Assembly: GCA_964617925.1 (NCBI GenBank)
Contig: CAZTYO010000001.1
Span: 1 to 60,771 of the forward strand
Source of the DNA: Candidatus Woesearchaeota archaeon
GTDB taxonomy: Archaea; Nanobdellota; Nanobdellia; SCGC-AAA011-G17; PNOQ01
DNA length: 60,771 nucleotides
Direction of reading: 5' to 3'
Part shown: positions 9,068-52,979 of the stretch, piece after piece
Position numbering within the stretch: position 1 is the first letter of the stretch
Layout: every line of letters starts with the position of its first letter
Position numbers and translations under genes: made by a program
The notes under the pieces: model-generated
Database searches by the model: none
Told to the model about the DNA's origin: nothing
The model's input: only the letters and a program-made list of their open reading frames with translations

Positions 9068-9078
9068 ATTTATAAAAA

Positions 9079-9566: not shown

Positions 9567-10256
9567 TTATTTTTTTCTCTTTTTCAATTCTTCAGTGATT
9601 TTAGAAAGCTCCTTTATGTTTGTAGTTAAAGGTGTTATGATTTTATTTAGAACTTTTTCAATTGCTTGCATCTCTGTTCCAATATCTCTAATATCTTTTC
9701 CATATTCTTCAACCTTGCCAAGTGACGCAGTTTGTAAATTATCAAATCTTTGTTGAGTTCTCAATATTTCTTGTTTTATTGCTTGTATATCTGTTTCTGT
9801 TTTTTCTTTCCATTTACTGATGTCTCCAAGTCCATGTAATAATTCTGCCCATTTTTCTTTTATTACGGATTCTGCAATTTCTTCTACCATTTCATAGCTT
9901 GCTCTTTCTGCAGGCATAGATTGCATAGATATCAAATCAGAAGATTGAGGATTTGTTGTTATTGGAGTAATTGGGGATGGTTGTTGGGAATTATTTGGTG
10001 TTTCAGATGTAGGAGATGGTGCGTTAGTTAAACCAAGAGGTACGCCCATAGTTCCAGAAGGAGGGAGAGGTGTACTTGAAGTAGTAGTTGCTTCATGCTT
10101 TATATTTGTTTGATCCATTGCACTTGCAATTTGTTCGTGAGAATAAGATTTGTCACTTAGACTTCCAATGATTTGTTCATTTGTTAGTCCTTTTTTTTTC
10201 ATTTCTGAAACTTCGTTGATTGGTGTCTTATTTACATTATCTTTTTGATTTAACAT
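9567..10256 (-). CDS. hypothetical protein: small N-terminal helical domain, P/S/T-rich linker, C-terminal coiled coil
   Basis: Low-complexity TTTSSTPLPPSG...NNSQQPSPITPITTNPQSS linker, followed by a ~110-aa heptad-like region. No TM helix. Confidence 0.6.
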   Translation of the reverse strand: MLNQKDNVNKTPINEVSEMKKKGLTNEQIIGSLSDKSYSHEQIASAMDQTNIKHEATTTSSTPLPPSGTMGVPLGLTNAPSPTSETPNNSQQPSPITPITTNPQSSDLISMQSMPAERASYEMVEEIAESVIKEKWAELLHGLGDISKWKEKTETDIQAIKQEILRTQQRFDNLQTASLGKVEEYGKDIRDIGTEMQAIEKVLNKIITPLTTNIKELSKITEELKKRKK

Positions 10257-10635
10257 TCTTTTGCCTCTTTTTTTCTATTAATTTTAAAACTTCTTCTTCT
10301 GTAACAAAGTTAAATGGGTTCCACATATTAATATATTTTTCTAAAACCTTTAATTGGTCTTTTCTTGCAAAATTTTCTAATTCTTGTACTAAATGTTTTA
10401 CTGTTTCTTTTACTTTAAATATGGATCCTTTTAATTCTTTTATATCTTCATTTAAAGCAGATAATTCACTATTTGTTTTTTTATAGTGATCTATCATGTT
10501 TTGATTCATTACAAACATTCTTTCTCTGTTTGTGCCATATCTTTCTTCTAAAATTCTCAACCTATTGTTTAATTCTATTAAAATTGCATAAGGATCTTGT
10601 TTTTGTTGAGGCGTGGGATTAGTTTGTTGTACCAT
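10237..10635 (-). CDS. hypothetical coiled-coil protein
   Basis: 132 aa, mostly heptad-like (LIELNNRLRILEERY...ELSALNEDIKELKGSIFKVKETVKHLVQELE). Overlaps the downstream gene by 20 nt. Divergent from the pilus ATPase gene. Confidence 0.6.
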   Translation of the reverse strand: MVQQTNPTPQQKQDPYAILIELNNRLRILEERYGTNRERMFVMNQNMIDHYKKTNSELSALNEDIKELKGSIFKVKETVKHLVQELENFARKDQLKVLEKYINMWNPFNFVTEEEVLKLIEKKRQKNVKSKR

Positions 10636-10726: not shown

Positions 10727-13009
10727 ATGGCATTCAAGAAAAAATTAAAATCGGGCGAATATGAATTAATTCAAGATGGGCAATTTGATGTAATGAAAGT
10801 GAATTATCTTGGAATCTCACATTCGTCATCTATTTCAGACAGTAAATTTTGTATGTTGGATGTCATTAACAAATTAATTGAAGTTCCAAGTGTGAATAGG
10901 TTAATCATTTCTTCTGAAAAAAATTATCAATATTCTGCTGAACAAATTTCGATGTTAAGGGAAATTGCGAATTTGTATATTTATTTAACTAAACAAAAAA
11001 GAATATTGAGTTTTGGAAGTTTTGGATTAAGTGTTGAATATGCACAAAAATCTCCTTCTAGGTTTTCAGAACTTCAATTTGTTATATCTACTCTTCTTCG
11101 TAGTGATCCAATCGGAGCATATGTAGAATTGAGGAGATTAATTAGGGAACAAAAAATTAGGATTTCTAAACTTCCTACAAAAGATTTGGCAAATGAAGAA
11201 AATGCACATCTCGAGTTGTTAGTTGGAGTGGTAGATTTATTGAAAAAAACTAAATTAATATCTTCTATTCTGGATTTTGTAGATGGGCATGAAATAGGTG
11301 ATCGTTCATTTTACTCTTCCTTATTTAGGCCATTGATTTCTCCAAATTTTATGTTTACTAGACTTATGTCTGAAATTCCATTGGATGGTGAAGAAATTGA
11401 TGCATATAATTTAGATAAAGAAACAGGTATTTCTATTTTTATTACTAAAAATGATATAAAACCTCTTTATCATTTGGATCCACTTGAATTTAATTTACCA
11501 GAAGAAAAAAATGAATTGTTAGATTTAGCTAGATCTGTTTTAGCAGAACATAAACCTGTTACTGAAGAGTTTGTAGATCCAGAAAATATGAGAAGAACAT
11601 TTTTTAATATAGGTAGAGATTTATTAATTGAACTTGCAAAACATAAAAATTATATTATACCTTATGATGAGATAGAAAATCTTGCTAATATTTTGGTTAG
11701 ATATACTGTAGGTTTTGGATTGATTGAATTATTATTAAAAGATCCTAAAATTCAAGATGTCGTTATAAATGGCCCAATCGGAGTAACTCCAATTTTTATT
11801 GTTCATCAAGATTATGGGGAATGTGTTACAAACATAATTCCTAGCAGGGAAGATGGAGAAAGTTGGGCAACGAAATTTAGAATGATTAGTGGCCGTCCAT
11901 TAGATGAAGCTAATCCAGTTTTGGACACTCAGCTTAATGTTCCTGGTGGTCAGGCAAGAGTTGCAATAATTTCTCAACCTCTTAATCCCTTAGGATATGC
12001 ATATGCTTTTAGGAGGCATAGGGAACATCCATGGACATTACCTTTATTTGTTCATAATAAAATGATAAATTCACTTGCTGCAGGTTTGCTTAGTTTTGTA
12101 ATTGATGGTGGAAGAACTATGCTTATTGCTGGAACCAGGAGCAGTGGTAAAACTTCCTTGCTTGGTTCTTGTTTAGTTGAAATTATGAGAAAACATAGAA
12201 TAATTACTGTTGAAGATACCTTAGAATTGCCAGTTAATTCTCTTAGAGATATGGGATATAATATTCAACCTATGAAAGTTAGGGCTGCGTTATCTGAAGG
12301 CGGGGCTGAAATGGCAGCAGAAGAAGGAATTAGAACAAGTTTGCGGCTTGGAGATAGCAGTTTGATAGTTGGAGAAATAAGGAGTAAGGAAGCTTTAGCT
12401 TTATATGAAGCTATGAGAGTTGGTGCCCTTGCTAATGTTGTTGCTGGAACTATCCATGGTGCAAGCCCCTATGGTGTTTATGATAGGGTAGTAAACGATC
12501 TTGGAGTTCCACGTACTAGTTTTAAGGCAACAGATTTGATTATTGTTGTAAATCCTATAAAAACTCCAGATGGTCTCCATAAAATTAAAAGAGTAGTTAG
12601 TATAACTGAAATTAGAAAAGACTGGGAAAAAGATCCGCTTGCTGAAAGAGGTTTTGTCGACCTTATGAAATATAATGCAAAAACTGATCAGTTGGAACCT
12701 ACAGATAATTTAATAAATGGAGATTCCGAAGTTATAAAGAGTATAGCTAGTTCAGTTAAAGAATGGGTTGGAGACTGGGATGCAGTTTGGAATAACATAA
12801 GATTAAGGGCAAAAATAAAACAAAGATTGGTTGATTATGCAGTAGAAAATAAAAATCTTGATCTTTTGGAAGCTCCCTTTGTTATAAACTCAAATGATCA
12901 ATTTCATAAAATATCTGATTCTATTCTAAGAAAAACTGGAAAATCAGATTATGAAAAAGTATATTTCCAATGGAATGAATGGTTAAAGAAACAAATAAAA
13001 AAGAGGTGA
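10727..13009 (+). CDS. type II/IV secretion-family ATPase (archaeal PilB/FlaI-like), long N-terminal extension
   Basis: Walker A (AGTRSSGKTS), the Asp/Glu box region and GEIRSKEALALYEAM, typical of GspE/VirB11/FlaI ATPases. ~330 residues precede the recognisable core. Confidence 0.85.
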   Translation: MAFKKKLKSGEYELIQDGQFDVMKVNYLGISHSSSISDSKFCMLDVINKLIEVPSVNRLIISSEKNYQYSAEQISMLREIANLYIYLTKQKRILSFGSFGLSVEYAQKSPSRFSELQFVISTLLRSDPIGAYVELRRLIREQKIRISKLPTKDLANEENAHLELLVGVVDLLKKTKLISSILDFVDGHEIGDRSFYSSLFRPLISPNFMFTRLMSEIPLDGEEIDAYNLDKETGISIFITKNDIKPLYHLDPLEFNLPEEKNELLDLARSVLAEHKPVTEEFVDPENMRRTFFNIGRDLLIELAKHKNYIIPYDEIENLANILVRYTVGFGLIELLLKDPKIQDVVINGPIGVTPIFIVHQDYGECVTNIIPSREDGESWATKFRMISGRPLDEANPVLDTQLNVPGGQARVAIISQPLNPLGYAYAFRRHREHPWTLPLFVHNKMINSLAAGLLSFVIDGGRTMLIAGTRSSGKTSLLGSCLVEIMRKHRIITVEDTLELPVNSLRDMGYNIQPMKVRAALSEGGAEMAAEEGIRTSLRLGDSSLIVGEIRSKEALALYEAMRVGALANVVAGTIHGASPYGVYDRVVNDLGVPRTSFKATDLIIVVNPIKTPDGLHKIKRVVSITEIRKDWEKDPLAERGFVDLMKYNAKTDQLEPTDNLINGDSEVIKSIASSVKEWVGDWDAVWNNIRLRAKIKQRLVDYAVENKNLDLLEAPFVINSNDQFHKISDSILRKTGKSDYEKVYFQWNEWLKKQIKKR

Positions 13010-15136
13010 ATGATGCCAATATCTGATAAAGAAATTCAAGATATTTTAAATAAATATAAAGTAAAACTTGAAGATAAAGTGAATGTGTCTGATATTAATA
13101 AATATTCTCCTAATCCTGAATTTTCTAAAGAGTATGAACAATTTAAAAAAGAATATATGTCTGCTGGAACAAGTACTTATGAAAAAATGTGTTCTGTTTC
13201 TGAAGGAATTTTAAAAGTTAACCCTTCAAAAAAAGATTATAATAAAATTGAAGAAAGTATTAAATTTACCCATTTGAAAATTACTCCTATTAGTGTTGCA
13301 AGTTTTTCAATGGTTGTTGCAGGAATATTTGTCCTGTTAGCAATTTTAGTTGGTTCAATTGGTTATTTTGTTTTTGAAAATTCTTCATCAATTTTTTTAG
13401 CAGTTTTGTTTGTTATTGGTGCCCTCATTTCTTTAAAATATTTTACAAATTATCCTATCCGTCTTGCTAATCAATGGAGGTTACAAGCTAGTAATCAAAT
13501 GGTATTGTGTATTCTTTATCTTGTTATTTATATGAGGCACACTTCTAATTTTGAAAATGCAATAAAATTTGCTGCAGATCATGTTAAACCTCCTCTCTCT
13601 CTTGACCTTAGAAAGATTTTTTGGGATGTTGAAACTGGAAAATTTTCAACTATGAAGGAATCTTTAGAAAGTTATCTTTCTCATTGGAGGGATTATAATT
13701 TAGAATTTGTCAATTCTTTTCATTTAATTGAAAGTAGTTTATATGAACCAGATGAAGGAAGAAGATTAGAACTTTTAGATAAAGGTTTAAAAGTAATTTT
13801 GGATGGAACTTATGATCGGATGCTTCGTTATGCGCATGATTTGAAAAATCCTATAACTATGCTCCATATGTTGGGAGTAATTTTGCCGATACTTGGATTA
13901 GTAATCTTTCCTCTTATTGGTAGTTTTATGGGTGGAACTGTTAAATGGTGGCACCTTGCAATGTTATATAATCTTGCTCTCCCTGTTATGGTTTTTACTA
14001 TGGGCAATGGCATTTTAAATAAAAGGCCAACTGGCTATGGCGAAAGTTTAGTAGAAGTTAAAACGAAAAAAAATGCTTCTTATTTTGGCTTTTTTTTATT
14101 TGGATTATTCGTTCTTATAGGAATATCTCCATTTATATTACATGCTATAAATCCAGGATATGATATTAATCTTTTTGGTGAGAAATTTCTAGATTTTGAA
14201 TGTTTTCAAACTGGAAAATGTTATGGTCCTTATGGTCTTGGTGCTACATTGTTGGGATTGTTCTTGCCTCTTGGAATTGCATTAGGTTTTGGAATTCATT
14301 TTGTTTCTAGAACAAAAAAAGCAATGAAAATAAGAGATGAAATAAAAAAATTAGAAAGTGAATTTTCTACAAGTTTGTTTCAGCTTGGAACTAGAATTGG
14401 AGATGGTATTCCTACCGAATCTGCTTTTAAAGATGTTGCGGAAACTTTAGGTGGGACTCCCACTGGTAATTTCTTTAGTAGGATTCATGCTAATCTAACT
14501 CAAGGAGGGTTAGGATTAAGGGATGCAATTTTTAATGGAGAAAATGGAGCAATTTTAGATTATAGGACGCCCTTAACTGAAAGTGCGATGGAAGTTCTTG
14601 TTGAAAGTTCAAAGAAAGGTCCGAATGTTGTTTCACAATCAATGATTAGTATTTCAGGTTATGTGGATAAGATCCATAAAATAAATGAAAGATTAAAAGA
14701 TCTTTTGGCAGAAATAATTTCTAGTATGAAAGGACAGATAAAATTTCTTACTCCCATAATTGCCGGAATTGTAGTTGGGATTTCTAGTATGATTGTAAGT
14801 GTAATCTCAAAACTTTCTCTTATGACTAAAGTAGTTCAGTCAGGGGATGATACCTTTGGAGGTGGAATTTCTGGACTGGGGGAATTATTCAATAAAGTAG
14901 ACACCATTCCTAGTTATTTTTTTCAAATTATTGTAGGGGTATATGTTATTCAAATAGTTTATATTTTAACTGTATTATCTAATGGAATTGAATTTGGTGT
15001 TGATAAATTAAATGAAAAAAATAAAGCTGGTAAAAATTTGATAAAGAGTACTCTACTATATTTAATTATATCTTTAGTTGTAATCTTAATGTTTAATGGC
15101 CTAGCATCTTCTATTCTTAGTCTTGATGGAATTTAA
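13010..15136 (+). CDS. polytopic pilus/archaellum platform protein (FlaJ/TadC/PilC-like)
   Basis: Starts directly after the ATPase stop. Has many TM helices separated by two soluble helical segments (for example FSTSLFQLGTRIGDGIPTESAFKDVAETL, T2SSF-like). Confidence 0.6.
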   Translation: MMPISDKEIQDILNKYKVKLEDKVNVSDINKYSPNPEFSKEYEQFKKEYMSAGTSTYEKMCSVSEGILKVNPSKKDYNKIEESIKFTHLKITPISVASFSMVVAGIFVLLAILVGSIGYFVFENSSSIFLAVLFVIGALISLKYFTNYPIRLANQWRLQASNQMVLCILYLVIYMRHTSNFENAIKFAADHVKPPLSLDLRKIFWDVETGKFSTMKESLESYLSHWRDYNLEFVNSFHLIESSLYEPDEGRRLELLDKGLKVILDGTYDRMLRYAHDLKNPITMLHMLGVILPILGLVIFPLIGSFMGGTVKWWHLAMLYNLALPVMVFTMGNGILNKRPTGYGESLVEVKTKKNASYFGFFLFGLFVLIGISPFILHAINPGYDINLFGEKFLDFECFQTGKCYGPYGLGATLLGLFLPLGIALGFGIHFVSRTKKAMKIRDEIKKLESEFSTSLFQLGTRIGDGIPTESAFKDVAETLGGTPTGNFFSRIHANLTQGGLGLRDAIFNGENGAILDYRTPLTESAMEVLVESSKKGPNVVSQSMISISGYVDKIHKINERLKDLLAEIISSMKGQIKFLTPIIAGIVVGISSMIVSVISKLSLMTKVVQSGDDTFGGGISGLGELFNKVDTIPSYFFQIIVGVYVIQIVYILTVLSNGIEFGVDKLNEKNKAGKNLIKSTLLYLIISLVVILMFNGLASSILSLDGI

Positions 15137-15175
15137 TAAAATTTATAAATCTGAAAATATGAATTAATTAGAAAG

Positions 15176-15289
15176 ATGGGTGAAATGGATAAATTTTTGA
15201 AGTATGCATTAAGGACAATATTTGTTTTACTTACATTATTTATATTATATTCCATGATTATGAAAGGGGTGAATTTATTTGTTAAATAA
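15176..15289 (+). CDS. 37-aa micro-ORF, single-TM peptide
   Basis: MGEMDKFLKYALRTIFVLLTLFILYSMIMKGVNLFVK. Not in the ORF track. Overlaps the next gene's TTG start by 11 nt. Confidence 0.35.
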   Translation: MGEMDKFLKYALRTIFVLLTLFILYSMIMKGVNLFVK

Positions 15290-16166
15290 AAAAGCAGGAA
15301 TGGCAATGACTATTGCAGGAATAATAATATTAGTTCTTGCTGCAGGAATTTTCCTATACTGGTTTCTTTTTGAATTTGGTCCTTATGCCGAACAAGGAGT
15401 TGGAAGAGAAGCATGTAGGGATAGTGTTTTTTTGAGAACTCAAGGAAAGATTGCAGGATATACCACTTTTAAAAATTTGGCTTGTGAAACTAGACAAAGA
15501 GAAATTAAAACTGTTGATGAAGATAATATTAAAAAAGCAATTTCTGAAGAAATGTATGATTGTTGGTATCAGTTTGGTGAAGGTAAAAAGGATTTTTTAA
15601 CTGATAGGGATTGGGGATTTGGAAATAATTGGTGTTTTATTTGTTCTAGGATTGATTTTGATGAAAGAGTTAAAGAAGAAATTTCTCAAGTAAATGGTTT
15701 GATGACTTATTTAGATACTACTCCAGTTCCATTTTATAATGGGTCTTTTTTTAATTATTTTTATGGTACTGAAGGAGAAATTGGTGGGCAAATTTTTGAA
15801 GATGACACCTATGCAACTAATGTTCCTCTTTATGTTGCTTTTTTTGGAGATAAGAAAGTAGGAAGTTGGCCAGGCCTTGGAGGAGAAGCAGTTAGCGATG
15901 TTGGGTGGACTGCACTTGTTGGTGGGATTGCAGGTTGTGTGATTTGGGGTACTCTTGGAGCTACTGGTGGAAGTATTGTTCCTATTGCTGGAACTGTTGC
16001 AGGTTTTATTGCTGGTTGTCTGGCTGGGGGTGATACTGGTTTTTATGCCGGGGCCTTAATTGGTGGTGGAAAGGCAGTTTATGATGTTGGAACCCATAAA
16101 AAAGGCTTTTATACTGGATTGTATGTTGGAAATAGTGATGAAATTTTGGAGTCGTGTAATCAATGA
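15279..16166 (+). CDS. pilin-like exported protein with Cys-containing middle domain and C-terminal glycine-zipper membrane segment
   Basis: N-terminus is LNKKA-GMAMTIAGIIILVLAAG (class III signal-like, TTG start; an alternative ATG lies at 15300). The C-terminus has GxxxG-dense hydrophobic repeats (VGGIAGCVIWGTLGATGGSIVPIAGTVAGFIAGCLAGG). Confidence 0.6.
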   Translation: MLNKKAGMAMTIAGIIILVLAAGIFLYWFLFEFGPYAEQGVGREACRDSVFLRTQGKIAGYTTFKNLACETRQREIKTVDEDNIKKAISEEMYDCWYQFGEGKKDFLTDRDWGFGNNWCFICSRIDFDERVKEEISQVNGLMTYLDTTPVPFYNGSFFNYFYGTEGEIGGQIFEDDTYATNVPLYVAFFGDKKVGSWPGLGGEAVSDVGWTALVGGIAGCVIWGTLGATGGSIVPIAGTVAGFIAGCLAGGDTGFYAGALIGGGKAVYDVGTHKKGFYTGLYVGNSDEILESCNQ

Positions 16167-16321
16167 ATAAAAAAGGAGACTTAGTTTGGGATCAGATTGG
16201 GAAATTTATTTTAGCAATTATATTGATGGTAATACTTGCTTTTATTCTTTGGATGCATAAAGATAATATTTTTGAAATGTTTGAAGATTTTAAAACTGTT
16301 TTTAGGTTTGGTGGTAGTTAG
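16163..16321 (+). CDS. 52-aa micro-ORF, pilin-like signal plus amphipathic Phe-rich tail
   Basis: MNKKGDLVWDQIGKFILAIILMVILAFILWMHKDNIFEMFEDFKTVFRFGGS. ATGA overlap with the upstream stop, and its TAG overlaps the next GTG start by 1 nt. Not in the ORF track. Confidence 0.45.
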   Translation: MNKKGDLVWDQIGKFILAIILMVILAFILWMHKDNIFEMFEDFKTVFRFGGS

Positions 16322-17499
16322 TGGAGACTACTATTAAACATATAATTTCGGGAATTTTTGTAGTTATGATTATAGTTTTGGTTGGTTTTTGGGGAAATAG
16401 TACTCTAACGACCTTGGCAAATCAATATGGTTGGGATCTTTTTATTGGTGCAGATGAAATTGCTGCTCAAAAAGATTCAAAAGAAATTTTTGATGATTTA
16501 ACTTTGTCTTTAACCGAATGTATGAGTGACGAAAGTGTTAATTGTTTTTGCATTAAGGAAGAGATAAATCTCCCCACCGATTTCAGACTTGAATTTTCTA
16601 AAAAAGAAAGTAGTACTGATGTTATTTTAAAGTCTTCAAGAGTTACATTGGATGAAAAAAATATTAATTTTATTCCTTGCCTTTTACTTGAACCTTGGCG
16701 TTCGTCAGTTAGTTTGAATGGTCCTTTGACTTTATTATACGGAAATGATAAGATAATTAATAAAGATTATGAAGGTTTTTTTGATTCTTCTTCTGTGTTT
16801 TATAAGATGGAAAATAATAATCTTTGTATTGTTTCTGTTGAAGTTGCTAATTCCTATGATATAATCAGTTTGGAATGTTCTGAAAAAGATGAATCTTTTG
16901 ATTCATGGATTGATGCAGCAATAGTTTTTGATTCTGAAATTGATAATGTCCAATTAAATCAATATGTTTCACTTGCATCAATAAATTCAAATTTTGTGAA
17001 TAATGCAGATAAAATAATTAAGGGAATAATTTATTTAGAATCTTATAATAATGGAATATTCACAAATAGAGAGATATTAAAACACCAAGGAACTGGAAAA
17101 TATTTTGAAGGAAAAGGAAAAGGAATATCTTCACTACAAGTCATTGAATCTGGTCCTGCATATGAAGCTATTGGATCTGATGAAGGTAGGAGAATTTTAA
17201 ATTTATATGGATATTCTGATGTTGATTTCAGTGATGATTATTTGTCTGCTCTTTTAATTAATGATCCAGAATTTTCTATTTCTCTTGCATATGTTTATTT
17301 ATCTAATTCTATTGAAGATTTTTCAAATGTTCAAAATACTAATGATTTGTTTAAGTTATGGTTAATTAATTATAATAAGGCGAGTTTGGAATATGGAGAT
17401 TATGTCAATAAGATAAATCTTTTAAATAGCAGAGTTTTTGATATTGGAATTGAAAATTCGCAAGTCATAAGTGAAGATCAGAATCCTCACAGAATTTAA
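16321..17499 (+). CDS. N-terminally anchored exported protein with C-terminal lytic-transglycosylase (SLT/GH23)-like motif set
   Basis: TM helix IISGIFVVMIIVLVGFW. The C-terminal region has YLES..N, GISSLQV, LINDPEFSISLAYVYL and WLINYNKA, in the order and approximate spacing of the SLT motifs ES / GLMQ / DPxxNIxxGxxYL / AYNAG. Confidence 0.45.
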   Translation: METTIKHIISGIFVVMIIVLVGFWGNSTLTTLANQYGWDLFIGADEIAAQKDSKEIFDDLTLSLTECMSDESVNCFCIKEEINLPTDFRLEFSKKESSTDVILKSSRVTLDEKNINFIPCLLLEPWRSSVSLNGPLTLLYGNDKIINKDYEGFFDSSSVFYKMENNNLCIVSVEVANSYDIISLECSEKDESFDSWIDAAIVFDSEIDNVQLNQYVSLASINSNFVNNADKIIKGIIYLESYNNGIFTNREILKHQGTGKYFEGKGKGISSLQVIESGPAYEAIGSDEGRRILNLYGYSDVDFSDDYLSALLINDPEFSISLAYVYLSNSIEDFSNVQNTNDLFKLWLINYNKASLEYGDYVNKINLLNSRVFDIGIENSQVISEDQNPHRI

Positions 17500-17707
17500 T
17501 AAAATGGAAAATAAAGAGTTAGAACAAAGAAGAATTCCCCTTACAGGTATAAAGTTAAAGGAAAATTTAGATAAAAATAAAGAAGTTGTTAGGGAAGCTA
17601 TAGAAGATCATATGTTTATTATGCCAGCATATTTAAAATTTTTTCATTTTTTTCCTACAATAAAAACTTATTTTAAAGAGAAGGTTAAATCTAAATCAAC
17701 CAAAAAG

Positions 17708-17715
17708 TTTAAATA
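17708..17715 (+). promoter_or_regulatory. TATA-like box in front of the canonical pilin gene
   Basis: TTTAAATA ends 27 nt upstream of the GTG at 17742. It lies in the only long spacer (17500-17741) of the operon. Confidence 0.4.
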
Positions 17716-17741
17716 GTAAATTTGCTAGTTTTTTAGAAGAG

Positions 17742-18107
17742 GTGATTATACTGAAAGTTGATAAAAAAGGTCAAAGTCTTTCAATGAATACAATTATAAT
17801 ATCTATTCTTGTGATATTAGTTTTAGTTATTGTTGCTGGATTTTTTGCAGGTGGGATGACTGGATTAATAAATAAGATGAAGGGAATTTTTGGAGCTCAG
17901 CCAATTGATGCTAGCCAGGCAGTAATGGAATGTAATGGCTATTGTCAGAGTTATGATATAACTGGTGTAGAAAATTACAAAACTAATTTTTGTGGTGATG
18001 TGCTTTTTGATTTAGATACTGATAATGATGGTAAGATGGATACAAGTAAAACTTGCTCTCAACTCGGAGTCATATGTCAAACGATTATAGATGAAGGGGG
18101 ATGTTAA
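17742..18107 (+). CDS. archaeal type IV pilin-like protein (class III signal peptide), Cys-rich globular domain
   Basis: VDKKGQ-SLSMNTIIISILVILVLVIVAG is a textbook KGQ cleavage context plus hydrophobic helix. Six Cys in the ectodomain. The exact start (GTG 17742) is uncertain. Confidence 0.75.
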   Translation: MIILKVDKKGQSLSMNTIIISILVILVLVIVAGFFAGGMTGLINKMKGIFGAQPIDASQAVMECNGYCQSYDITGVENYKTNFCGDVLFDLDTDNDGKMDTSKTCSQLGVICQTIIDEGGC

Positions 18108-18139
18108 CCCTTTCTTTCTATTATTTGGAGATTTGTTAA

Positions 18140-18310
18140 ATGAGACTTGCCCTTGATACCATAGTTGTGTTTATTATAGCTATTTTAGTTTTAGTTTTAA
18201 TGTTGTTTATTTTTGGGGATCAATTTAAGACATTTTTTAATACATTTGGTGTGTTTATAAAGAATGCATTAGGTATTGCTAATATTGGTGTTAATGGAAC
18301 CATACAATGA
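18140..18310 (+). CDS. 56-aa micro-ORF, single-TM peptide with Phe-rich amphipathic tail
   Basis: MRLALDTIVVFIIAILVLVLMLFIFGDQFKTFFNTFGVFIKNALGIANIGVNGTIQ. GGAG lies ~8 nt upstream, and there is an ATGA overlap with the next gene. Not in the ORF track. Confidence 0.45.
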   Translation: MRLALDTIVVFIIAILVLVLMLFIFGDQFKTFFNTFGVFIKNALGIANIGVNGTIQ

Positions 18311-18786
18311 AATTAAGTTTTAAATTTATCTTTGGATTGGTAATTGGTATTGCAGGTCTTTTTTTGGCATTTAGTGCAGGGAGTGCAATGTGGGGGATTT
18401 TTTTCCCCGAACCTTTAGAATTAACTGAAAGTTCTATGGATAGATTGAATGTAGTTATATCAAATTTAGAAGAAGGTCAGAATACCACTATGTTATTTTA
18501 TTTAGAAAAGGGTTTTTATTTAGTTGGTTTTGATAAAGGGTCTGATTCTGGGCCAGTATATTTGCGACCTGAACAATGTTTTGAAACTTTCTGTTTATTA
18601 ATTTGTTCAAATTCTGGAAATGAAAGAAGTTGTTTAGATGCAAATTATGGGATAAGTCCTAATTCAATTGTTTCTTTTACTTCTGAAAATGTTGGCGGAG
18701 TTATTCTTTCAGAAACGGGAGAATATATTACTTTATACTTGGAAAAACAAGGAAGTGCTCTTTTAATTGAAAAACTTAATTCTTAA
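18307..18786 (+). CDS. N-terminally anchored exported protein, unknown family
   Basis: 159 aa; TM helix FIFGLVIGIAGLFLAFSAG; 4 Cys. In-operon position. Confidence 0.65.
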   Translation: MKLSFKFIFGLVIGIAGLFLAFSAGSAMWGIFFPEPLELTESSMDRLNVVISNLEEGQNTTMLFYLEKGFYLVGFDKGSDSGPVYLRPEQCFETFCLLICSNSGNERSCLDANYGISPNSIVSFTSENVGGVILSETGEYITLYLEKQGSALLIEKLNS

Positions 18787-18799
18787 ATTTGTAAAAATC

Positions 18800-18809
18800 T
18801 TTATAAATA
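18800..18809 (+). promoter_or_regulatory. TATA-like box, possible internal promoter
   Basis: TTTATAAATA ends 20 nt before the ATG at 18830. Confidence 0.3.
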
Positions 18810-18829
18810 TGTAAATCTGATTTTTATGC

Positions 18830-19237
18830 ATGGAAGAGGAGAGAATATATTTGTGGCCAGGATATCTTGTTATAACAACGCTTGTTTTAATCTCTTTATT
18901 TTTTATTTTAGTTAAGATATCTGATGAAACTTCGTTTAATCAAGATTATCTTTCAAAAGATATTTCATTATTAGAACAAAGTTTATTTATTGCTCCAGGC
19001 GATGTTTCTCTTAGGTATGAAGTTGTTCAAGATGAAGATAGGTTTAAAATAACTTTTGATGATTCTTGTGAGGTAAATGTAAATATCGATGATAGTTTGG
19101 GTTTTTCTGGTTCTTCTTCTTGGTGTGGAGGAAATAATTATTTTTTTACAGATTATCCACCTCAAGATGATTTTGATTATTTATTTTTTAATAAAACTTA
19201 CTCGGATTTAATTGTTGAAGGTGGAAAAAATGGATAA
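18830..19237 (+). CDS. N-terminally anchored exported protein, unknown family
   Basis: 135 aa; TM helix GYLVITTLVLISLFFILV; acidic ectodomain. Confidence 0.6.
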   Translation: MEEERIYLWPGYLVITTLVLISLFFILVKISDETSFNQDYLSKDISLLEQSLFIAPGDVSLRYEVVQDEDRFKITFDDSCEVNVNIDDSLGFSGSSSWCGGNNYFFTDYPPQDDFDYLFFNKTYSDLIVEGGKNG

Positions 19238-19727
19238 AAAAGGTTTTGTTTTTTTAACTGAAGAACAAATGAGTTTAGTCGTATATGTTTTTGTAATTCT
19301 TTTTGTTTGTGGCGTTTTAATTGTTGGATCATATTTATTTACAGATAAAAACATTGAAACTCAAGGGTTAGAGAGGCATTTATTAATAAATGGATTGTTA
19401 TATTCTCCAACTTGTTTGAGTTATAGTGATGAACTTCGTTCATATCCTGGAATAATAGATTTAGATAATTTTAATGAGAATAAATTGTCTAATTGTATTT
19501 CTTATGAATTCGGAGGCCAAGGATTTAAGTTAATTTTATATGATGTTAATGAAACAATATTGAAAGAAGTAGAAGTTAATCCTCAAGTATTTACACAGGG
19601 ATTATTGTGTGGATTGAAAGAATCAAATTTTGAATGTTTTTCCAAACGAGATTATGTGTTGTTTGAGAACAATTCTTTTTTTGAATCTGGTTATTTAGAT
19701 ATTAAGGTGGTGACTCCAGTTGGATAA
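19230..19727 (+). CDS. pilin-like protein (class III signal-like N-terminus)
   Basis: MDKKG-FVFLTEEQMSLVVYVFVILFVCGVLIVG. GGTGGA precedes the ATG at 19230 (the track used the TTG at 19212). 8-nt overlap with the upstream gene. Confidence 0.6.
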   Translation: MDKKGFVFLTEEQMSLVVYVFVILFVCGVLIVGSYLFTDKNIETQGLERHLLINGLLYSPTCLSYSDELRSYPGIIDLDNFNENKLSNCISYEFGGQGFKLILYDVNETILKEVEVNPQVFTQGLLCGLKESNFECFSKRDYVLFENNSFFESGYLDIKVVTPVG

Positions 19728-20295
19728 AAAAGCAACAACTTTAATGATGAGGCTTTTTAATATTCTTTTAATAGGAATTCTCTTGGCAGGATTTTTATTG
19801 ATTATGGCATTTGGTAGTTTGAAAGAAAGTGAAAATCAAGAGATTATTAAAATAAATGAAAAATTAACTTATTCTGAAGATAACCTTCAAATGATTAATT
19901 ATCTTAGGTCTAATTTCCAATTTCCAAAATTTGGAAATTCTAGTGTTTTATCTATATTAATAAATTATGATTCTAATCTTCTTTCTAGTTCTGATGTGAA
20001 TTTTCTGAAAGAACAAACTGAAAATATCTTAAATAATATGACATACTGTCAAATTATTGATAATAAAGAAATTTTGAGAAGTTATTCCTTTTATTTGACT
20101 GCAGAACTATATATGAAATTTGATGAAATTGAGGAAATTGTTCAATTCAGTTCAGAATCTTTTTGTAATGTGGATGATCAATTTATTTGTAATGATCAAT
20201 TTATTGTTGAAACTCAAAAATTATTAGATGGGTATTATCTTATTCTTGTTGCTAGTGATACTTTTTATTCTGGGGAGAATTGTTTAAAATGGTGA
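19720..20295 (+). CDS. pilin-like protein (class III signal-like N-terminus)
   Basis: TTG start preceded by AAGGTGGTGA. MDKKA-TTLMMRLFNILLIGILLAGFLLIM. 8-nt overlap with the upstream gene. Confidence 0.55.
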   Translation: MDKKATTLMMRLFNILLIGILLAGFLLIMAFGSLKESENQEIIKINEKLTYSEDNLQMINYLRSNFQFPKFGNSSVLSILINYDSNLLSSSDVNFLKEQTENILNNMTYCQIIDNKEILRSYSFYLTAELYMKFDEIEEIVQFSSESFCNVDDQFICNDQFIVETQKLLDGYYLILVASDTFYSGENCLKW

Positions 20296-21059
20296 ATAAA
20301 AAAGGATTATTTACATTATATGTTTTAATTTATACTATCTTAGGAATAGGAATTTCTTTAATGTTATTTGTTAATTTTCAAGAACATTCTTCTACTAAAT
20401 ATCTTGGAGATAGCCAATTAAACCTTATTGAATTATATTCTGAAGGGGAGAGTGATCTATTTTATGTTACTCAACTTCTTTCTGATATTGAAATTGTTTC
20501 TAGTTTGTTTGAAAATGGAGGATTTTATAATGATCCAAATAAAATGAATGGAGAATATGTATTGTGGAAAAAGAATTCATCCGATTGCTATCCCACTTTA
20601 AATTTATTAGATAGGGAGTTTTCTATTGTTTTTAATAAAAAATTGTTAAATGAAGGCTATTCTCTTGATTATTCCACCAAAGTTATAAATTCTCTTTCTT
20701 TTTTTGAAATTTTATTTAATTCTTCAAAAAATTTAGATTATTCTATTGTTAATAAAGAAAATGAAGAAATTGGAATTTATTCTCTCTCCCCTAATTTCAA
20801 AATCTTGATTAATTATGATTTAAATAATTTTTTTAGTTTTGTTGAAGAAGTTAAATCTATTGTAGGTTTGTGCCAAAATGACGAAAATTGTTGGGAATCT
20901 CATGCAACTTTTGAATGGGAGAACAATGGTAACCTTTTTATGTTTGAGTCACTTCCTCAATTAATTCAAACTGTAAATGGAGAAAAAGAAGTAAAAATTA
21001 AAGCTGCAGTTGATTTCGAAGAAATAAATGAATTAGTTGAAGGTGAATTTGAATGTTAA
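20289..21059 (+). CDS. pilin-like protein (class III signal-like N-terminus)
   Basis: MVNKKG-LFTLYVLIYTILGIGISLMLFV. GGGGAG lies 12 nt upstream of the ATG at 20289. Overlaps both neighbours. Confidence 0.55.
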   Translation: MVNKKGLFTLYVLIYTILGIGISLMLFVNFQEHSSTKYLGDSQLNLIELYSEGESDLFYVTQLLSDIEIVSSLFENGGFYNDPNKMNGEYVLWKKNSSDCYPTLNLLDREFSIVFNKKLLNEGYSLDYSTKVINSLSFFEILFNSSKNLDYSIVNKENEEIGIYSLSPNFKILINYDLNNFFSFVEEVKSIVGLCQNDENCWESHATFEWENNGNLFMFESLPQLIQTVNGEKEVKIKAAVDFEEINELVEGEFEC

Positions 21060-22045: not shown

Positions 22046-22497
22046 TGTATAAAACTCATTTGATTTTTGGAATTTTGGCAGCTATATTAGTTTTACAAAT
22101 ATTTAAAATTGAAAATCCAATTATCTTTTTTTTGGTTTTGTGTTTTGCTTCTTTGCTTCCAGATATAGATTTCCCTAAAAGTTGGTTAGGAAGAAGAATA
22201 AAACCTTTGTCATGGATTATTAGGTTGTTTTTTGGACATAGAAAATTTATTCATAGTATTTATGTTCCATTTATTCTTTATTTCTTGTTGTCCATTGTAG
22301 GACAAAAAGAAGTGGGAATGGCAGTATTTATAGGTTATCTTGTTCATTTATTTGCTGATGGATTATCTAGTGAAGGAATTAAACCATTTTATCCTCTTTC
22401 AAAAATGAAATTCAAAGGAATTGTGCGGGTTGGAGGAATTTTGGAATCCTGTGTTTTAATTGGTTTGATAATTCTTATTTTATTTCTTTTGTTTTAA
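22042..22497 (+). CDS. membrane-bound metal-dependent hydrolase, YdjM/DUF457-like
   Basis: Polytopic, 151 aa, with LPDIDFP...HRKFIHS...HLFADG His/Asp pattern. ATGA overlap with the RPA stop. Confidence 0.6.
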   Translation: MMYKTHLIFGILAAILVLQIFKIENPIIFFLVLCFASLLPDIDFPKSWLGRRIKPLSWIIRLFFGHRKFIHSIYVPFILYFLLSIVGQKEVGMAVFIGYLVHLFADGLSSEGIKPFYPLSKMKFKGIVRVGGILESCVLIGLIILILFLLF

Positions 22498-24114: not shown

Positions 24115-24399
24115 ATGGCATATGTGATAGTGACTTTAAAAATAATGCCAAATAATCCCGAAGTAGATTTGAAAGAATTGGAATCAAAGATTAAAGTTTC
24201 ATTATCCGAATTTTTGAAAAAAAAAGAACCAGAAACTAAAGTAGAAATAACTCCTGTTGCATTTGGATTAAATTCAATTGATCTGACTTTTGCAGTAGAT
24301 GAAAGTCTGGGTTCGGCAGATCCTTTTGCAGAGTTAGTTTCAACTTTCGAAGAAGTTGCTTCTGCGGAAATAATCGATGCTAGACGGGCATTAGGTTAA
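24115..24399 (+). CDS. ef1b: translation elongation factor aEF-1 beta
   Basis: MAYVIVTLKIMPNNPEVDLKELE...VAFGLNSIDLTFAVDE...SAEI pattern and ~94 aa size. Start moved to the ATG at 24115. Confidence 0.75.
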   Translation: MAYVIVTLKIMPNNPEVDLKELESKIKVSLSEFLKKKEPETKVEITPVAFGLNSIDLTFAVDESLGSADPFAELVSTFEEVASAEIIDARRALG

Positions 24400-25275
24400 A
24401 ACATACATCAAGACATTTCCAAATATTAAACTTATTATTACTGCCAATATTATTGCAGGTAGAAAGGGGATTCCATCTTTTATTATTATTTTTTTAATTT
24501 TGTTTTTATTTAATAATTTAATTTGTTCTTTTGTAATTCCTTGTGTAGATGGTTTGTAAATTATTTGTTTATTTACTTTTATTTGATGAGTTATGTAATC
24601 TCCTTCTCTTAATTTATTTGAATTAATTGTTTTGATCATGCTTGCTTTTTCTATTGCAGAAATGGTTAACCAAAAATAAAATAAAACTAAAGGTAATGCA
24701 AGTATTATTATTGCCGAAAGTTTAAATTGAAAATTTTTAATCATTATCATACTTAATAATATTCCACTTATTGAAAAATAAATTGTTATTTTTTTTAGTT
24801 TTTTAATATTCTTGATTTTACTTTTTTCCTTATAATATTTTATTAATTTTTCTTTATTTTTTATTCCTAATATTATTCCTAAAATTATACTATATATTGC
24901 TCCAACAATCATTATGTTGATAAACAAAATTATTAAAAAATTCATATTTAAAGAAGGGTTAAAATATTTTAATAAGAATTCTGGATATTCTGGAATCGCT
25001 GCTCCAATCATCATTAATATTTTTGAATCTCCTCCTCCCCATTGTTTTGTGTAATACATTATATTTCCAATAGTGAAAAATATTCCAAAACCAATTAAAC
25101 TAATAATTAAGATATTCCAATTGTTCGATATTAGTGAAGAAAATAAATAAAAACTAAAGAGTGAGATTATTATACTAAAATTTAACCAATTTGGAACTTC
25201 TTTAGTTTTTATATCTGAATAAGTAGCTATAGTTAATCCTATTAATAATAATATTAAAATTATTGCTTCCATCAA
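24391..25275 (-). CDS. A24-family prepilin/preflagellin peptidase (PibD/FlaK/EppA-like)
   Basis: Polytopic. First catalytic Asp context is ATYSDIKTKEVPNWLN; the second is in WGGGDSKILMMIGA (GxGD). Confidence 0.8.
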   Translation of the reverse strand: MMEAIILILLLIGLTIATYSDIKTKEVPNWLNFSIIISLFSFYLFSSLISNNWNILIISLIGFGIFFTIGNIMYYTKQWGGGDSKILMMIGAAIPEYPEFLLKYFNPSLNMNFLIILFINIMIVGAIYSIILGIILGIKNKEKLIKYYKEKSKIKNIKKLKKITIYFSISGILLSMIMIKNFQFKLSAIIILALPLVLFYFWLTISAIEKASMIKTINSNKLREGDYITHQIKVNKQIIYKPSTQGITKEQIKLLNKNKIKKIIIKDGIPFLPAIILAVIISLIFGNVLMYVLT

Positions 25276-52454: not shown

Positions 52455-52979
52455 TTATTCTCCCATTAAATTAACAATTATTGTACCTGTTCCATATTGT
52501 TCGCCTGATGCAGATTCTGCAATTAGTGTATAAAAACAAGTTGGCCCTATCGGTGTACCTTTTGGAATATTTATCTGAAAAGGTATTGAAGTTAGGTCTC
52601 CTTCTTCAGTGGGTAATGCAGTAGTTGGTGTTTTTATCCAATCTAATTCACAGGCTGGATCGTTTCCACTTAATGCTAAGTTTAGTATAACATCTCCCCA
52701 TCCGTTATAATCTCTCACTCCTACTCCTACTGTTCTAATGTTTCCAGGTTTTATTTCAAATGATAGTCCTGATATGAAAAAGTCATCGTCGCTTGCCATT
52801 ATTTCTCTTACCATTCTGTCTGCTTCAAGAAATGCTTCATCCCCAAGTGAACCTCCCTTGTCAAATATATTTTTTACCCACGTTAGTCCAAGTGTTAATA
52901 ATGTGACTCCAATTACAATTACAATTATTGTTGTCATAGACAATTCGATTGCCCCTTTTTTATTAGAATGAGTTTTCAT
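52455..52979 (-). CDS. archaeal type IV pilin-like protein (class III signal peptide)
   Basis: MKTHSNKKG-AIELSMTTIIVIVIGVTLLTLG. GGTGA lies upstream. Confidence 0.7.
   Translation of the reverse strand: MKTHSNKKGAIELSMTTIIVIVIGVTLLTLGLTWVKNIFDKGGSLGDEAFLEADRMVREIMASDDDFFISGLSFEIKPGNIRTVGVGVRDYNGWGDVILNLALSGNDPACELDWIKTPTTALPTEEGDLTSIPFQINIPKGTPIGPTCFYTLIAESASGEQYGTGTIIVNLMGE

What the first reader, a model, noticed from the sequence alone, without database searches (positions are those of the whole stretch)
10727..21059. Ten-kilobase type IV pilus-like operon: long-form ATPase, 708-aa platform and 11 exported proteins, mostly of unknown family
All genes from 10727 to 21059 are on the + strand. 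They abut or overlap (13009/13010, ATGA at 16163 and 18307, 7-8 nt overlaps at 19230, 19720 and 20289), and the other gaps are under 45 nt. The exception is one 242-nt spacer (17500-17741) carrying a TATA-like box. The ATPase has GspE/FlaI hallmarks (GTRSSGKTS, GEIRSKEA) behind ~330 residues I cannot assign. The platform protein is unusually long. Only one downstream gene (17742) is a textbook pilin. The other ectodomains match nothing I recognise. In a housekeeping-dominated compact genome this is the largest accessory investment. That fits a cell-cell or host-contact organelle, but the functional reading is inference.
Basis: partly seen in the sequence, partly recalled or inferred. Interest (0 to 1): 0.72.

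Follow-up and report, generated by a model that had tools for sequence, protein, structure and literature searches.

The report
Woesearchaeal type IV pilus gene cluster
This is a real and widely conserved gene cluster for building a type IV pilus-like surface filament in a tiny uncultivated (DPANN, Woesearchaeota) archaeon; only its motor ATPase is recognisable to standard annotation, so it is an undescribed variant of a well-known machine rather than a new kind of system.

Summary
The gene layout is real, and the reading as a type IV filament (TFF) locus holds. The ATPase is a T2SSE/FlaI/CpaF-type enzyme with all catalytic boxes invariant. The 708-aa protein fails Pfam T2SSF by sequence, but its AlphaFold model matches the GspF/EpsF cytoplasmic domain (TM 0.69-0.74). 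An A24 prepilin peptidase sits 3.3 kb downstream. Six of the ten downstream proteins carry [KR][GA]+hydrophobic class III-like N-termini (Fisher p=3e-4). Homologues of four of the five others carry them in related genomes.

Corrections:
- The 242-nt 'spacer' holds a conserved 70-aa ORF plus a conserved BRE/TATA box for the major pilin.
- An overlooked 142-nt gap holds a conserved 37-aa mini-ORF.
- The platform length is the family norm.
- Tight gene packing is genome-wide, so it is not evidence of an operon.

The most persistent unit across 31 Woesearchaeota loci is ATPase + platform + two divergently transcribed cytoplasmic coiled-coil genes, which lie outside the reported coordinates. The pilin-like proteins, the first ~200 ATPase residues and the coiled-coil pair match no Pfam or PDB family.

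Verdict: an unannotated, lineage-specific variant of the archaeal type IV pilus. Its function (adhesion or host contact) is inferred. Interest is moderate.

The parts
9567..10256 (-). up2: 229-aa cytoplasmic protein with a small UBA-like N-terminal helical domain, a P/Q-rich linker and a C-terminal coiled coil. Probable accessory or regulatory subunit.
   Evidence: No TM segment. Only generic coiled-coil or weak UBA hits. Homologue found in 27 of 31 loci, just upstream of the up1 homologue that flanks the ATPase, including the most divergent loci.
10237..10635 (-). up1: 132-aa cytoplasmic coiled-coil protein, transcribed divergently from the ATPase. It shares its coiled-coil region with up2.
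   Evidence: Found in 28 of 31 loci. Its profile cross-hits up2 at 1e-10 to 1e-22. It is kept in L018, L019, L022, L023 and L031, where the other upstream genes are gone.
10727..13009 (+). Assembly ATPase, 760 aa. A lineage-specific N-terminal extension (about residues 1-200) is followed by a FlaI/GspE-type N domain and a RecA-like core with Walker A, Asp box, Walker B and His box.
   Evidence: Pfam T2SSE 4.4e-15. NCBIfam FlaI 3e-38 (residues 257-706) and TadA 5e-34. PDB 2OAP 4e-26, CpaF 1e-21, FlaI 2e-17. Catalytic residues are invariant. The N-terminus has no Pfam or PDB match. It occurs in 286 clusters, N-terminal in nearly all hits listed.
13010..15136 (+). Polytopic membrane platform protein, 708 aa, about 8 TM helices and two cytoplasmic helical domains. 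A divergent GspF/PilC/TadC-type protein.
   Evidence: Pfam T2SSF only 3.6e-4, below threshold, on residues 458-539. AF2 model pLDDT 78.9, pTM 0.73. Foldseek matches EpsF 3c1q/2vma/2vmb and OutF 5nbg with prob 0.99-1.00, TM(target) 0.69-0.74, rmsd about 3 A, though all Foldseek E-values are 0.2-2 (none <=0.001). Present next to the ATPase in all 29 loci whose contig reaches it.
15141..15149 (+). Conserved TATA-like box (TTTATAAAT) just after the platform stop codon. Candidate internal promoter.
   Evidence: Invariant block in a 6-locus DNA alignment. Function is inferred.
15176..15289 (+). Mini-ORF of 37 aa (MGEMDKFLKYALRTIFVLLTLFILYSMIMKGVNLFVK), a single hydrophobic helix. Micro-pilin-like peptide, not annotated publicly.
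   Evidence: An ORF of 30-41 aa lies at the same place in 12 of 12 loci where platform and g3 are adjacent. Four begin with KKG or KRG.
15279..16166 (+). g3: 295-aa pilin-like protein. It has a KKA class III-like N-terminus, a long N-terminal helix, a Cys-rich alpha/beta ectodomain and a Gly-rich hydrophobic C-terminal segment.
   Evidence: Found in 16 loci with 35 database homologues, all unannotated (hypothetical or unnamed). Six cysteines are invariant. AF2 pLDDT 70 with a lollipop shape. No Pfam, PDB or Foldseek match.
16163..16321 (+). g4: 52-aa micro-pilin (MNKKGDLVW...), helix only.
   Evidence: Passes the strict FlaFind-type motif. Conserved and cross-hits the g6/g7 N-termini.
16321..17499 (+). 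g5: 392-aa membrane-anchored exported protein with the largest ectodomain. It has no KKG motif in this clade and evolves fast.
   Evidence: N-terminal TM. Homologues in only 4 loci and 1 database fragment. Proteins at the same position in distant loci start with NKKG. No PDB match.
17504..17716 (+). 70-aa ORF inside the reported 'spacer'. Its invariant TKKFK-stop end coincides with the pilin promoter box.
   Evidence: 34-41% identity to ORFs at the same place in L001, L002 and L026. Called by ENA and JGI gene finders.
17702..17715 (+). BRE/TATA-like box AAAAAGTTTAAATA, about 27 nt upstream of the major pilin start.
   Evidence: TTTAAATA and the purine-rich run before it recur in the window and six loci down to 54% ATPase identity; the full 14-mer is identical only in the window, L001, L002 and L026. 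It is kept even where the 70-aa ORF is absent.
17742..18107 (+). g6: candidate major pilin, 121 aa. It has a DKKG|QSLSMNTIII class III signal and a small Cys-rich globular domain with a DxDxDG loop.
   Evidence: Passes the strict motif. Family found in 14 loci. Own conserved promoter. No Pfam pilin family or PDB hit.
18093..18114 (+). G+C-rich hairpin followed by a T-rich tail, straddling the pilin stop codon. Possible attenuator.
   Evidence: This is a consensus match only, and the count is not above shuffles.
18140..18310 (+). g7: 56-aa micro-pilin.
   Evidence: Found in 12 loci. Homologues start MLGKKGQ or MNKKGL.
18307..18786 (+). g8: 159-aa pilin-like minor subunit.
   Evidence: N-terminal hydrophobic helix. 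Found in 6 loci. Distant homologues carry NKKG or SKKG.
18830..19237 (+). g9: 135-aa pilin-like minor subunit.
   Evidence: Found in 9 loci. Distant homologues carry KRG.
19230..19727 (+). g10: 165-aa pilin-like minor subunit (MDKKGFVF...).
   Evidence: Class III-like motif. Found in 8 loci. The ATG start agrees with public gene calls.
19720..20295 (+). g11: 191-aa pilin-like minor subunit (MDKKATTL...).
   Evidence: Found in 4 loci.
20289..21059 (+). g12: 256-aa pilin-like minor subunit (MVNKKGLF...).
   Evidence: Found in 4 loci.
24391..25275 (-). Prepilin (class III signal) peptidase, 294 aa, about 7 TM helices.
   Evidence: Pfam Peptidase_A24 8.5e-13 (above threshold) and Arc_PepC_II 1.5e-3. 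A GxGD motif is present.
52455..52979 (-). Unlinked paralogous pilin, 174 aa (NKKGAIELSMTTII...).

Best explanation
The locus encodes a type IV filament (TFF) assembly machine of the non-archaellum, adhesive-pilus type. It is conserved across Woesearchaeota (GTDB Nanoarchaeia).

Proposed mechanism, step by step:
1. The pilin-like proteins insert into the membrane through their N-terminal hydrophobic helix.
2. The A24 peptidase at 24391-25275 removes the short basic leader after [KR][GA].
3. The hexameric 760-aa ATPase binds the cytoplasmic domains of the 708-aa GspF-like platform. It uses ATP hydrolysis to lift processed subunits out of the membrane into a helical filament.
4. g6 (121 aa, with its own conserved BRE/TATA) is the major subunit.
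5. The translationally coupled g8-g12, and probably g3 and g5 with their large ectodomains, form minor-pilin, tip or base complexes that prime assembly and carry binding specificity.
6. The three 37-56-aa helix-only peptides are Flp-like micro-pilins or assembly factors.
7. The two divergently transcribed cytoplasmic coiled-coil proteins probably dock on the lineage-specific N-terminal extension of the ATPase, as scaffold or regulator.

Shown here: the identity of the ATPase, the fold of the platform, the presence of the peptidase, the signal-like N-termini and the synteny. Inferred: processing, filament formation, subunit roles, docking of the coiled-coil proteins, and the biological role (attachment to surfaces or to a host cell).
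For: - ATPase: T2SSE, FlaI, TadA and CpaF homology with invariant catalytic boxes.
- Platform: predicted structure matches EpsF/OutF cytoplasmic domains, prob 0.99-1.00, TM 0.69-0.74. A sub-threshold T2SSF hit lies on the same protein.
- Peptidase: A24 family, in the window.
- Pilin-like proteins: 10 of 10 downstream proteins have one N-terminal hydrophobic helix. Six carry class III-like motifs, enrichment p=2.8e-4. Homologues of g7, g8 and g9, and proteins in g5's position, carry KKG or KRG in other loci.
- g3: the model has the pilin lollipop shape.
- Synteny: ATPase plus platform in every locus that extends that far. g3 in 16 loci, the g6 pilin family in 14, and g8-g10 in 6-9.
- Core unit: the up2-up1-ATPase-platform quartet survives in the most divergent loci.
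- Promoter: conserved box before g6.
- Literature: pili and type IV pilin genes are reported for ultra-small groundwater DPANN/CPR cells (PMC9938205). Subsystem-specific ATPase N-domains and coiled-coil partners are known in archaeal TFF (10.64898/2026.04.22.720090; PMC4858521).
Against: - The platform fails Pfam T2SSF. Only 3 of 21 members hit, all below threshold, and a profile search of PDB sequences finds nothing.
- An internal duplication of the platform is not detectable.
- No pilin here matches a Pfam pilin family or a solved pilin.
- Only 2 of 10 pass the strict FlaFind-type pattern.
- g5, g7, g8 and g9 lack a [KR][GA] site in this clade.
- g3 has a second hydrophobic segment, which would hinder extraction into a filament.
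- Several relatives have ATPase plus platform without adjacent pilin genes (L010, L014, L015, L021, L024, L028).
- Nearer relatives conserve the whole 7-kb upstream block. Part of the up1/up2 linkage could therefore be ordinary synteny.
- There are no expression, processing or imaging data.
Confidence: 0.8

Rival explanations
1. The locus builds a bindosome- or pseudopilus-like assembly. The same machinery makes only a short membrane-proximal structure that presents or exports large surface proteins (g3, g5, g12), not a long adhesive fibre.
For: There are many pilin-like proteins with sizeable ectodomains but only one small major-pilin candidate. g3 has an extra hydrophobic C-terminal segment. 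g5, g7, g8 and g9 lack cleavage motifs in this clade. NCBIfam BasE scores 1.8e-16. Functionalised TFF machineries are proposed to be widespread in archaea (10.64898/2026.04.22.720090).
Against: g6 has its own strongly conserved promoter and the best class III signal, as expected for an abundant fibre subunit. No ABC transporter or substrate-binding protein lies in the locus. The BasE score is far below FlaI and TadA.
Confidence: 0.12
2. The locus builds a DNA-uptake or DNA-exchange pilus (competence- or Ups-like) that is functionally coupled to the flanking recombination genes.
For: RPA overlaps the last pilin-like gene by 7 nt. YdjM, an 88-aa protein and RadA follow tightly. A Hef-type helicase-nuclease lies 4.6 kb upstream. 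RPA lies near the ATPase/platform in 8 loci, in two orientations. The Sulfolobales Ups pilus locus also neighbours helicase and nuclease genes (10.64898/2026.04.22.720090).
Against: RPA, RadA and Hef are universal housekeeping genes. Tight packing and long co-directional runs are genome-wide. No ComEC-, Ced- or DprA-like gene was seen in the locus. Synteny of the whole block is high in near relatives.
Confidence: 0.07
3. The locus encodes an archaellum, that is, a rotary swimming motor.
For: The best NCBIfam hit for the ATPase is FlaI (3e-38). Cytoplasmic coiled-coil partners are loosely reminiscent of FlaC/D/E or FlaX.
Against: The FlaI score is 132 bits against a cutoff of 550. No FlaH, FlaF/G, FlaC/D/E or archaellin family is hit by any protein. 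According to 10.64898/2026.04.22.720090, an extended ATPase N-terminus is typical of non-archaellum systems.
Confidence: 0.02

Closest known systems
Archaeal adhesive type IV pili (Sulfolobales Aap, Haloferax PilA/PilB3-C3, Methanococcus Epd)
   Same: The core set matches: a T2SSE-family ATPase, a polytopic platform, several class III-signal pilins and an A24 peptidase. The ATPase and platform genes are adjacent, followed by a pilin gene cluster.
   Different: No pilin here hits the Pfam archaeal pilin models. There is one platform gene of 708 aa, whereas the Epd-type system 1 has two. The ATPase carries about 200 extra N-terminal residues with no known homologue. There are three 37-56-aa helix-only genes and a conserved pair of cytoplasmic coiled-coil genes.
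Makarova 2016 subclade 4F archaeal T4P (PMC4858521)
   Same: That subclade has ATPases with extra variable N-terminal domains and a cytoplasmic coiled-coil partner (arCOG07564). [quoted passage not shown]
   Different: Membership could not be tested because no arCOG profiles or reference tree were available. The N-terminal extension here is not cysteine-rich (one Cys in residues 1-300). Here the pilins lie directly downstream.
Bacterial Tad/Flp pilus (CpaF/TadA, TadB/C, Flp)
   Same: The ATPase scores TadA 5e-34 and CpaF 1e-21. It has very small pilin-like peptides reminiscent of Flp. The platform is of the TadB/C-GspF type.
   Different: There is no Flp motif, no TadZ, no secretin and no TadV-type peptidase. 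The organism is an archaeon with a single membrane.
Archaellum (FlaI/FlaJ)
   Same: FlaI is the top NCBIfam hit for the ATPase. Both have a single large platform gene.
   Different: The score is far below the FlaI cutoff. No FlaH, FlaF/G or archaellins are present.

Membership tests
Type IV filament (TFF) superfamily | Secretion ATPase of the T2SSE/VirB11 family with Walker A, Asp box, Walker B and His box | tested here: met
   Pfam T2SSE 55.7 bits against a cutoff of 24.9. PDB hits to GspE, CpaF and FlaI. The motifs are invariant in 20 homologues.
Type IV filament (TFF) superfamily | Polytopic platform protein of the GspF/PilC/TadC (T2SSF) family | tested here: inconclusive
   By sequence: 20.9 bits, below the Pfam cutoff of 25.2; only 3 of 21 relatives hit; the PDB profile search is empty. 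By predicted fold: EpsF and OutF cytoplasmic domains match with prob 0.99-1.00, TM 0.69-0.74, rmsd about 3 A, but with Foldseek E-values of 0.4-1.7. A second repeat was not demonstrated.
Type IV filament (TFF) superfamily | Pilins with a class III signal peptide (short basic leader, G/A at -1, then a hydrophobic helix) | tested here: met
   Six of 10 downstream proteins fit a relaxed motif and two fit the strict FlaFind-type motif. Enrichment p=2.8e-4. The motif is conserved across relatives. Cleavage itself was not tested.
Type IV filament (TFF) superfamily | Dedicated aspartic prepilin peptidase (A24) | tested here: met
   24391-25275 (-) scores Peptidase_A24 49.1 bits against a cutoff of 26.5.
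Archaellum | FlaI equivalog, FlaH, FlaF/G and archaellins | tested here: not met
   FlaI scores 132 bits against a cutoff of 550. No other archaellum family is hit in the locus.
Pfam archaeal pilin families (Pilin_N PF07790, Class_III_signal PF04021) | HMM match of the pilin N-terminus | tested here: not met
   No hit at E<=0.1 for any downstream protein, and none at E<=0.05 for 14 members of the g6 family.
Makarova subclade 4F / arCOG07564-associated T4P | ATPase falls in clade 4F, with a coiled-coil arCOG07564 partner | not testable with these tools
   No arCOG profiles or reference ATPase tree were available. This is only a literature lead (PMC4858521).
Tad/Flp pilus | TadA equivalog, Flp prepilin motif, TadZ and a secretin | tested here: not met
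   TadA scores 118 bits against a cutoff of 373. No Flp or other Tad family hits were found.

The most novel reading that the evidence does not exclude
This may be a distinct, DPANN-specific TFF subsystem that current arCOG- and MacSyFinder-type classifications miss. It would build a composite filament or tip from a dozen or more pilin-like proteins, including three helix-only micro-pilins. A cytoplasmic coiled-coil pair bound to a novel ATPase N-domain would control it. The organelle would serve host contact and possibly DNA import, and be co-inherited with the flanking Hef, RPA and RadA recombination genes.
Probability: 0.15. Interest if true: 0.7.

Novelty: new variant of a known kind. Interest (0 to 1): 0.45.

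Why it matters
No Woesearchaeota has been cultivated, and how DPANN archaea attach to partners is largely unknown. This locus gives a concrete parts list that is conserved across the lineage: more than 3,400 platform homologues in public data, of which the 120 listed carry no Pfam domain. It includes a candidate major pilin with its own promoter, the candidate processing peptidase, and two unsuspected cytoplasmic partners. It also shows that standard annotation sees only the ATPase. Wrong start codons for g3 and g11 hide their signal peptides, and one of the two small genes is missed altogether. Surveys based on Pfam or KEGG will therefore under-report pili in DPANN.

Tried and rejected
1. g5 C-terminal domain as a lytic transglycosylase (motifs YLES, SSLQV, NYNK seen by eye). 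A profile of 5 sequences against PDB gave nothing below E=0.6, and Pfam gave nothing. Rejected.
2. Homologue search for g5. It found only itself and one fragment, so no structure could be predicted.
3. Internal duplication of the platform, tested by hhalign of the two halves. Not significant.
4. Profile search of PDB sequences with the platform family gave 0 hits.
5. ATPase N-terminal 300 residues gave no Pfam or PDB homologue.
6. g3 gave no Pfam, PDB-sequence or Foldseek match.
7. up2 gave only generic coiled-coil hits and a weak UBA hit.
8. PADLOC defence models on 10 proteins gave none.
9. Rfam and tRNA scans found nothing in the locus.
10. The sigma-70 promoter and terminator scan was not above shuffles and does not apply to archaea.
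11. Gene abutment as evidence of an operon. Rejected because packing is genome-wide.
Full report
**Source and context.** The window is a whole 60,771-bp metagenomic contig (ENA ERZ23498639, scaffold_1401; near-identical JGI contigs). It has about 28% G+C and is about 96% coding. Thirty-one GTDB loci encode the same ATPase. Twenty-eight of them match the full-length protein at 49-77% identity. Most are labelled Woesearchaeota or Nanoarchaeia, so the organism is a DPANN archaeon.

**Observation check.**
- Two statements fail. The interval 15137-15278 is a 142-nt gap, not one under 45 nt. The 242-nt 'spacer' is not empty.
- Tight packing is also not distinctive. Outside the region, 70% of co-directional gaps are <=45 nt. 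The tight + strand run continues through an RPA-like gene (7-nt overlap with the last pilin-like gene), YdjM, an 88-aa ORF and RadA.
- What does exceed chance is the content. Ten of ten proteins between 15279 and 21059 have a single N-terminal hydrophobic helix. Six carry a [KR][GA] site just before it. That is 6 of the 12 ORFs of at least 50 aa scanned inside the region, versus 3 of 64 ORFs elsewhere (Fisher p=2.8e-4).

**Core machine: ATPase.**
- The 760-aa protein is a T2SSE ATPase (Pfam 4.4e-15). Its best NCBIfam matches are FlaI (3e-38, residues 257-706) and TadA (5e-34), both far below equivalog cutoffs.
- Its best solved relatives are A. fulgidus GspE 2OAP (4e-26), CpaF and FlaI.
- Walker A (GTRSSGKTS), the Asp box, Walker B (GEIR) and the His box are invariant in 20 homologues.
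- The alignments to FlaI and GspE begin around residues 200-260. The truly unassignable part is therefore about the first 200 residues, not 330.
- That extension is conserved and has no Pfam or PDB homologue.
- In a search of 1.84 billion representatives it occurs in 286 clusters, at the N-terminus of the protein in nearly all hits listed.
- Subsystem-specific N-terminal domains are a described feature of archaeal TFF ATPases (10.64898/2026.04.22.720090).

**Core machine: platform.**
- The 708-aa membrane protein reaches only 20.9 bits on Pfam T2SSF (cutoff 25.2). Three of 21 relatives hit at all.
- A family profile finds nothing among PDB sequences.
- An AlphaFold2 model (pLDDT 78.9, pTM 0.73) matches the cytoplasmic domains of V. 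cholerae EpsF and D. dadantii OutF. The scores are probability 0.99-1.00, TM(target) 0.69-0.74 and about 3 A rmsd, with the PilC model of 3JC8 at lower probability. The whole-model Foldseek E-values are weak (0.2-2; none at or below 0.001).
- I therefore treat it as a strongly diverged GspF/PilC/TadC-type platform.
- Its length is the family norm, 680-757 aa in 29 relatives.
- The family is large: more than 3,400 database hits. The 120 listed carry no precomputed Pfam domain and are unnamed or 'hypothetical', apart from one JGI 'TadB' label.

**Core machine: peptidase.** A prepilin peptidase lies at 24391-25275 on the minus strand (Peptidase_A24 8.5e-13). This completes the four-component TFF core.

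**Pilin-like set.**
- g6 (17742-18107) has the textbook signal DKKG|QSLSMNTIII. It also has a small Cys-rich domain with a DxDxDG loop. Its family is found in 14 loci.
- g3, g4, g10, g11 and g12 start with [ND]KK[GA] followed by a hydrophobic helix.
- g7, g8 and g9 lack that site in this clade. Their homologues in more distant loci begin with KKG or KRG, as do proteins in g5's position. At family level, essentially all downstream genes are therefore pilin-like.
- g3 is the most conserved accessory gene: 16 loci, 35 database homologues (all unannotated) and six invariant cysteines. Its model is a long N-terminal helix on an alpha/beta head, followed by a low-confidence Gly-rich hydrophobic segment. 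It has no structural neighbour in the PDB.
- None of the pilins hits a Pfam pilin model or a solved pilin.

**Hidden features.**
- The 142-nt gap holds a 37-aa ORF (15176-15289) encoding one hydrophobic helix. An ORF of 30-41 aa sits at the same place in 12 of 12 loci where platform and g3 are adjacent. Four of these begin with KKG or KRG. A conserved TTTATAAAT box precedes it.
- The 'spacer' holds a 70-aa ORF (17504-17716) that is conserved in three relatives and called by public gene finders.
- Its invariant end, TKKFK-stop, is the DNA motif AAAAAGTTTAAATA. The TTTAAATA box and the purine-rich run before it recur upstream of the g6 homologue in six other loci. These include loci that lack the small ORF.
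- Together with g4 (52 aa) and g7 (56 aa), the locus has three helix-only micro-pilin-like genes.

**Conservation and true extent.**
- Iterative searches over all ORFs of the 31 loci show two divergently transcribed minus-strand genes, up1 (10237-10635) and up2 (9567-10256), in 28 and 27 loci.
- Both are cytoplasmic coiled-coil proteins. up2 adds a UBA-like head and a P/Q-rich linker.
- Near relatives also keep the 7-kb block further upstream: Hef helicase, M50 peptidase, TraB, PRC and three paralogous membrane proteins. Part of the up1/up2 linkage could therefore be plain synteny.
- However, the most divergent loci (L018, L019, L022, L023, L031) keep up2-up1-ATPase(-platform) while most or all of that upstream block is gone. 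This makes up2-up1-ATPase-platform the most persistent unit.
- The pilin block follows the platform in most loci that extend far enough. It is absent in six (L010, L014, L015, L021, L024, L028).

**Mechanism.** The best-supported reading is a non-archaellum type IV pilus.
1. The peptidase processes the pilin-like proteins.
2. The ATPase, docked on the platform, drives their extraction from the membrane and their polymerisation.
3. g6 is the major subunit, under its own promoter.
4. The translationally coupled g8-g12 form a priming or tip complex, by analogy with bacterial minor pilins.
5. g3 and g5 are specificity or base components.
6. The coiled-coil pair docks on the novel ATPase N-domain.

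Only component identity and conservation are shown here. Processing, assembly, subunit roles and the attachment or host-contact function are inferences. They are consistent with reports of pili and pilin genes in ultra-small groundwater DPANN/CPR cells (PMC9938205).

**Rivals.**
- A bindosome- or pseudopilus-like presenter of surface proteins.
- A DNA-uptake or DNA-exchange pilus linked to the flanking Hef, RPA and RadA genes.
- An archaellum. This is rejected: there is no FlaH, FlaF/G or archaellin, and FlaI scores 132 bits against a cutoff of 550.

**Comparison with known systems and novelty.**
- The system works like the archaeal adhesive T4P (Aap, Epd, Haloferax Pil) and shares ATPase affinity with Tad/CpaF.
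- A literature lead is Makarova's subclade 4F. [quoted passage not shown] I could not test membership without arCOG profiles or a reference tree.
- I rate the locus a new variant of a known kind. The core is canonical. The ATPase N-domain, the pilin repertoire, the micro-pilins and the coiled-coil pair are lineage-specific and unannotated.
- Interest is moderate at 0.45. The locus is useful for DPANN cell biology and annotation, but it is not conceptually surprising.

Noticed in passing
L027:10001-14392; L025:902-4711; L029:9554-13402; L030:5021-8869: Homologous ATPase genes carry inteins at two different sites. One is inside the P-loop (GTRSSGK|C...HN|TS, 711 aa, L027). The other follows the Asp box (ITVED|S...HN|TLELP, 516 aa, L025, L029 and L030). 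The window's ATPase has no intein. The representative search also returned several 1260-1783-aa members.
   Followed up: partly
L011:4033-5696; L016:12238-13921: About 1.7 kb of small ORFs is inserted between ATPase and platform in two relatives. By eye they look like a winged-helix protein plus a HEPN-like protein. They may form a mobile or toxin-antitoxin cassette.
   Followed up: no
window 21053-23857 and 3914-6103: The pilus genes are flanked by recombination and repair genes. Downstream lie an RPA-like gene (overlapping g12 by 7 nt), YdjM, an unassigned 88-aa ORF and RadA. Upstream lies a Hef-type helicase-nuclease. The downstream order is kept in L001, L002, L026 and L005, and partly in L013. 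RPA sits inverted next to the platform in L014, L015 and L021.
   Followed up: partly
window 7953-9564 (+): Three tandem paralogous membrane proteins with 5-6 TM helices (188, 181 and 161 aa) have no Pfam family. They are conserved just upstream of up2 in 24 of 31 loci but are absent from the upstream flank of L018 and L022 (not assessable in L023, which has only about 90 nt upstream).
   Followed up: partly
window 25453-29856 (+): A second cluster of exported proteins of unknown family lies next to the prepilin peptidase, transcribed divergently from it. The first (375 aa) starts MFNKKASVSGFMILL, which is class III-like. Two others look like lipoproteins (SGC).
   Followed up: no
window 15279-16166 and 19720-20295: ENA/NCBI gene calls start g3 at Met10 (286 aa) and g11 at residue 9 (183 aa). 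This cuts off the class III-like leaders. JGI calls use the TTG starts (295 and 191 aa).
   Followed up: yes
window 17742-17760: In relatives, a GGTGA Shine-Dalgarno-like motif lies 4-6 nt before the pilin ATG or TTG start. The window has CTG at that position and an in-frame GTG inside the GGTG. The true start codon of g6 is therefore uncertain, although the frame and the signal are unaffected.
   Followed up: partly
L014, L015, L022; protein P0102: Some records carrying this Woesearchaeota-type locus are labelled 'uncultured Methanosarcinales', 'Candidatus Micrarchaeum sp.' or 'Armatimonadota bacterium'. These are probably binning or labelling errors.
   Followed up: no
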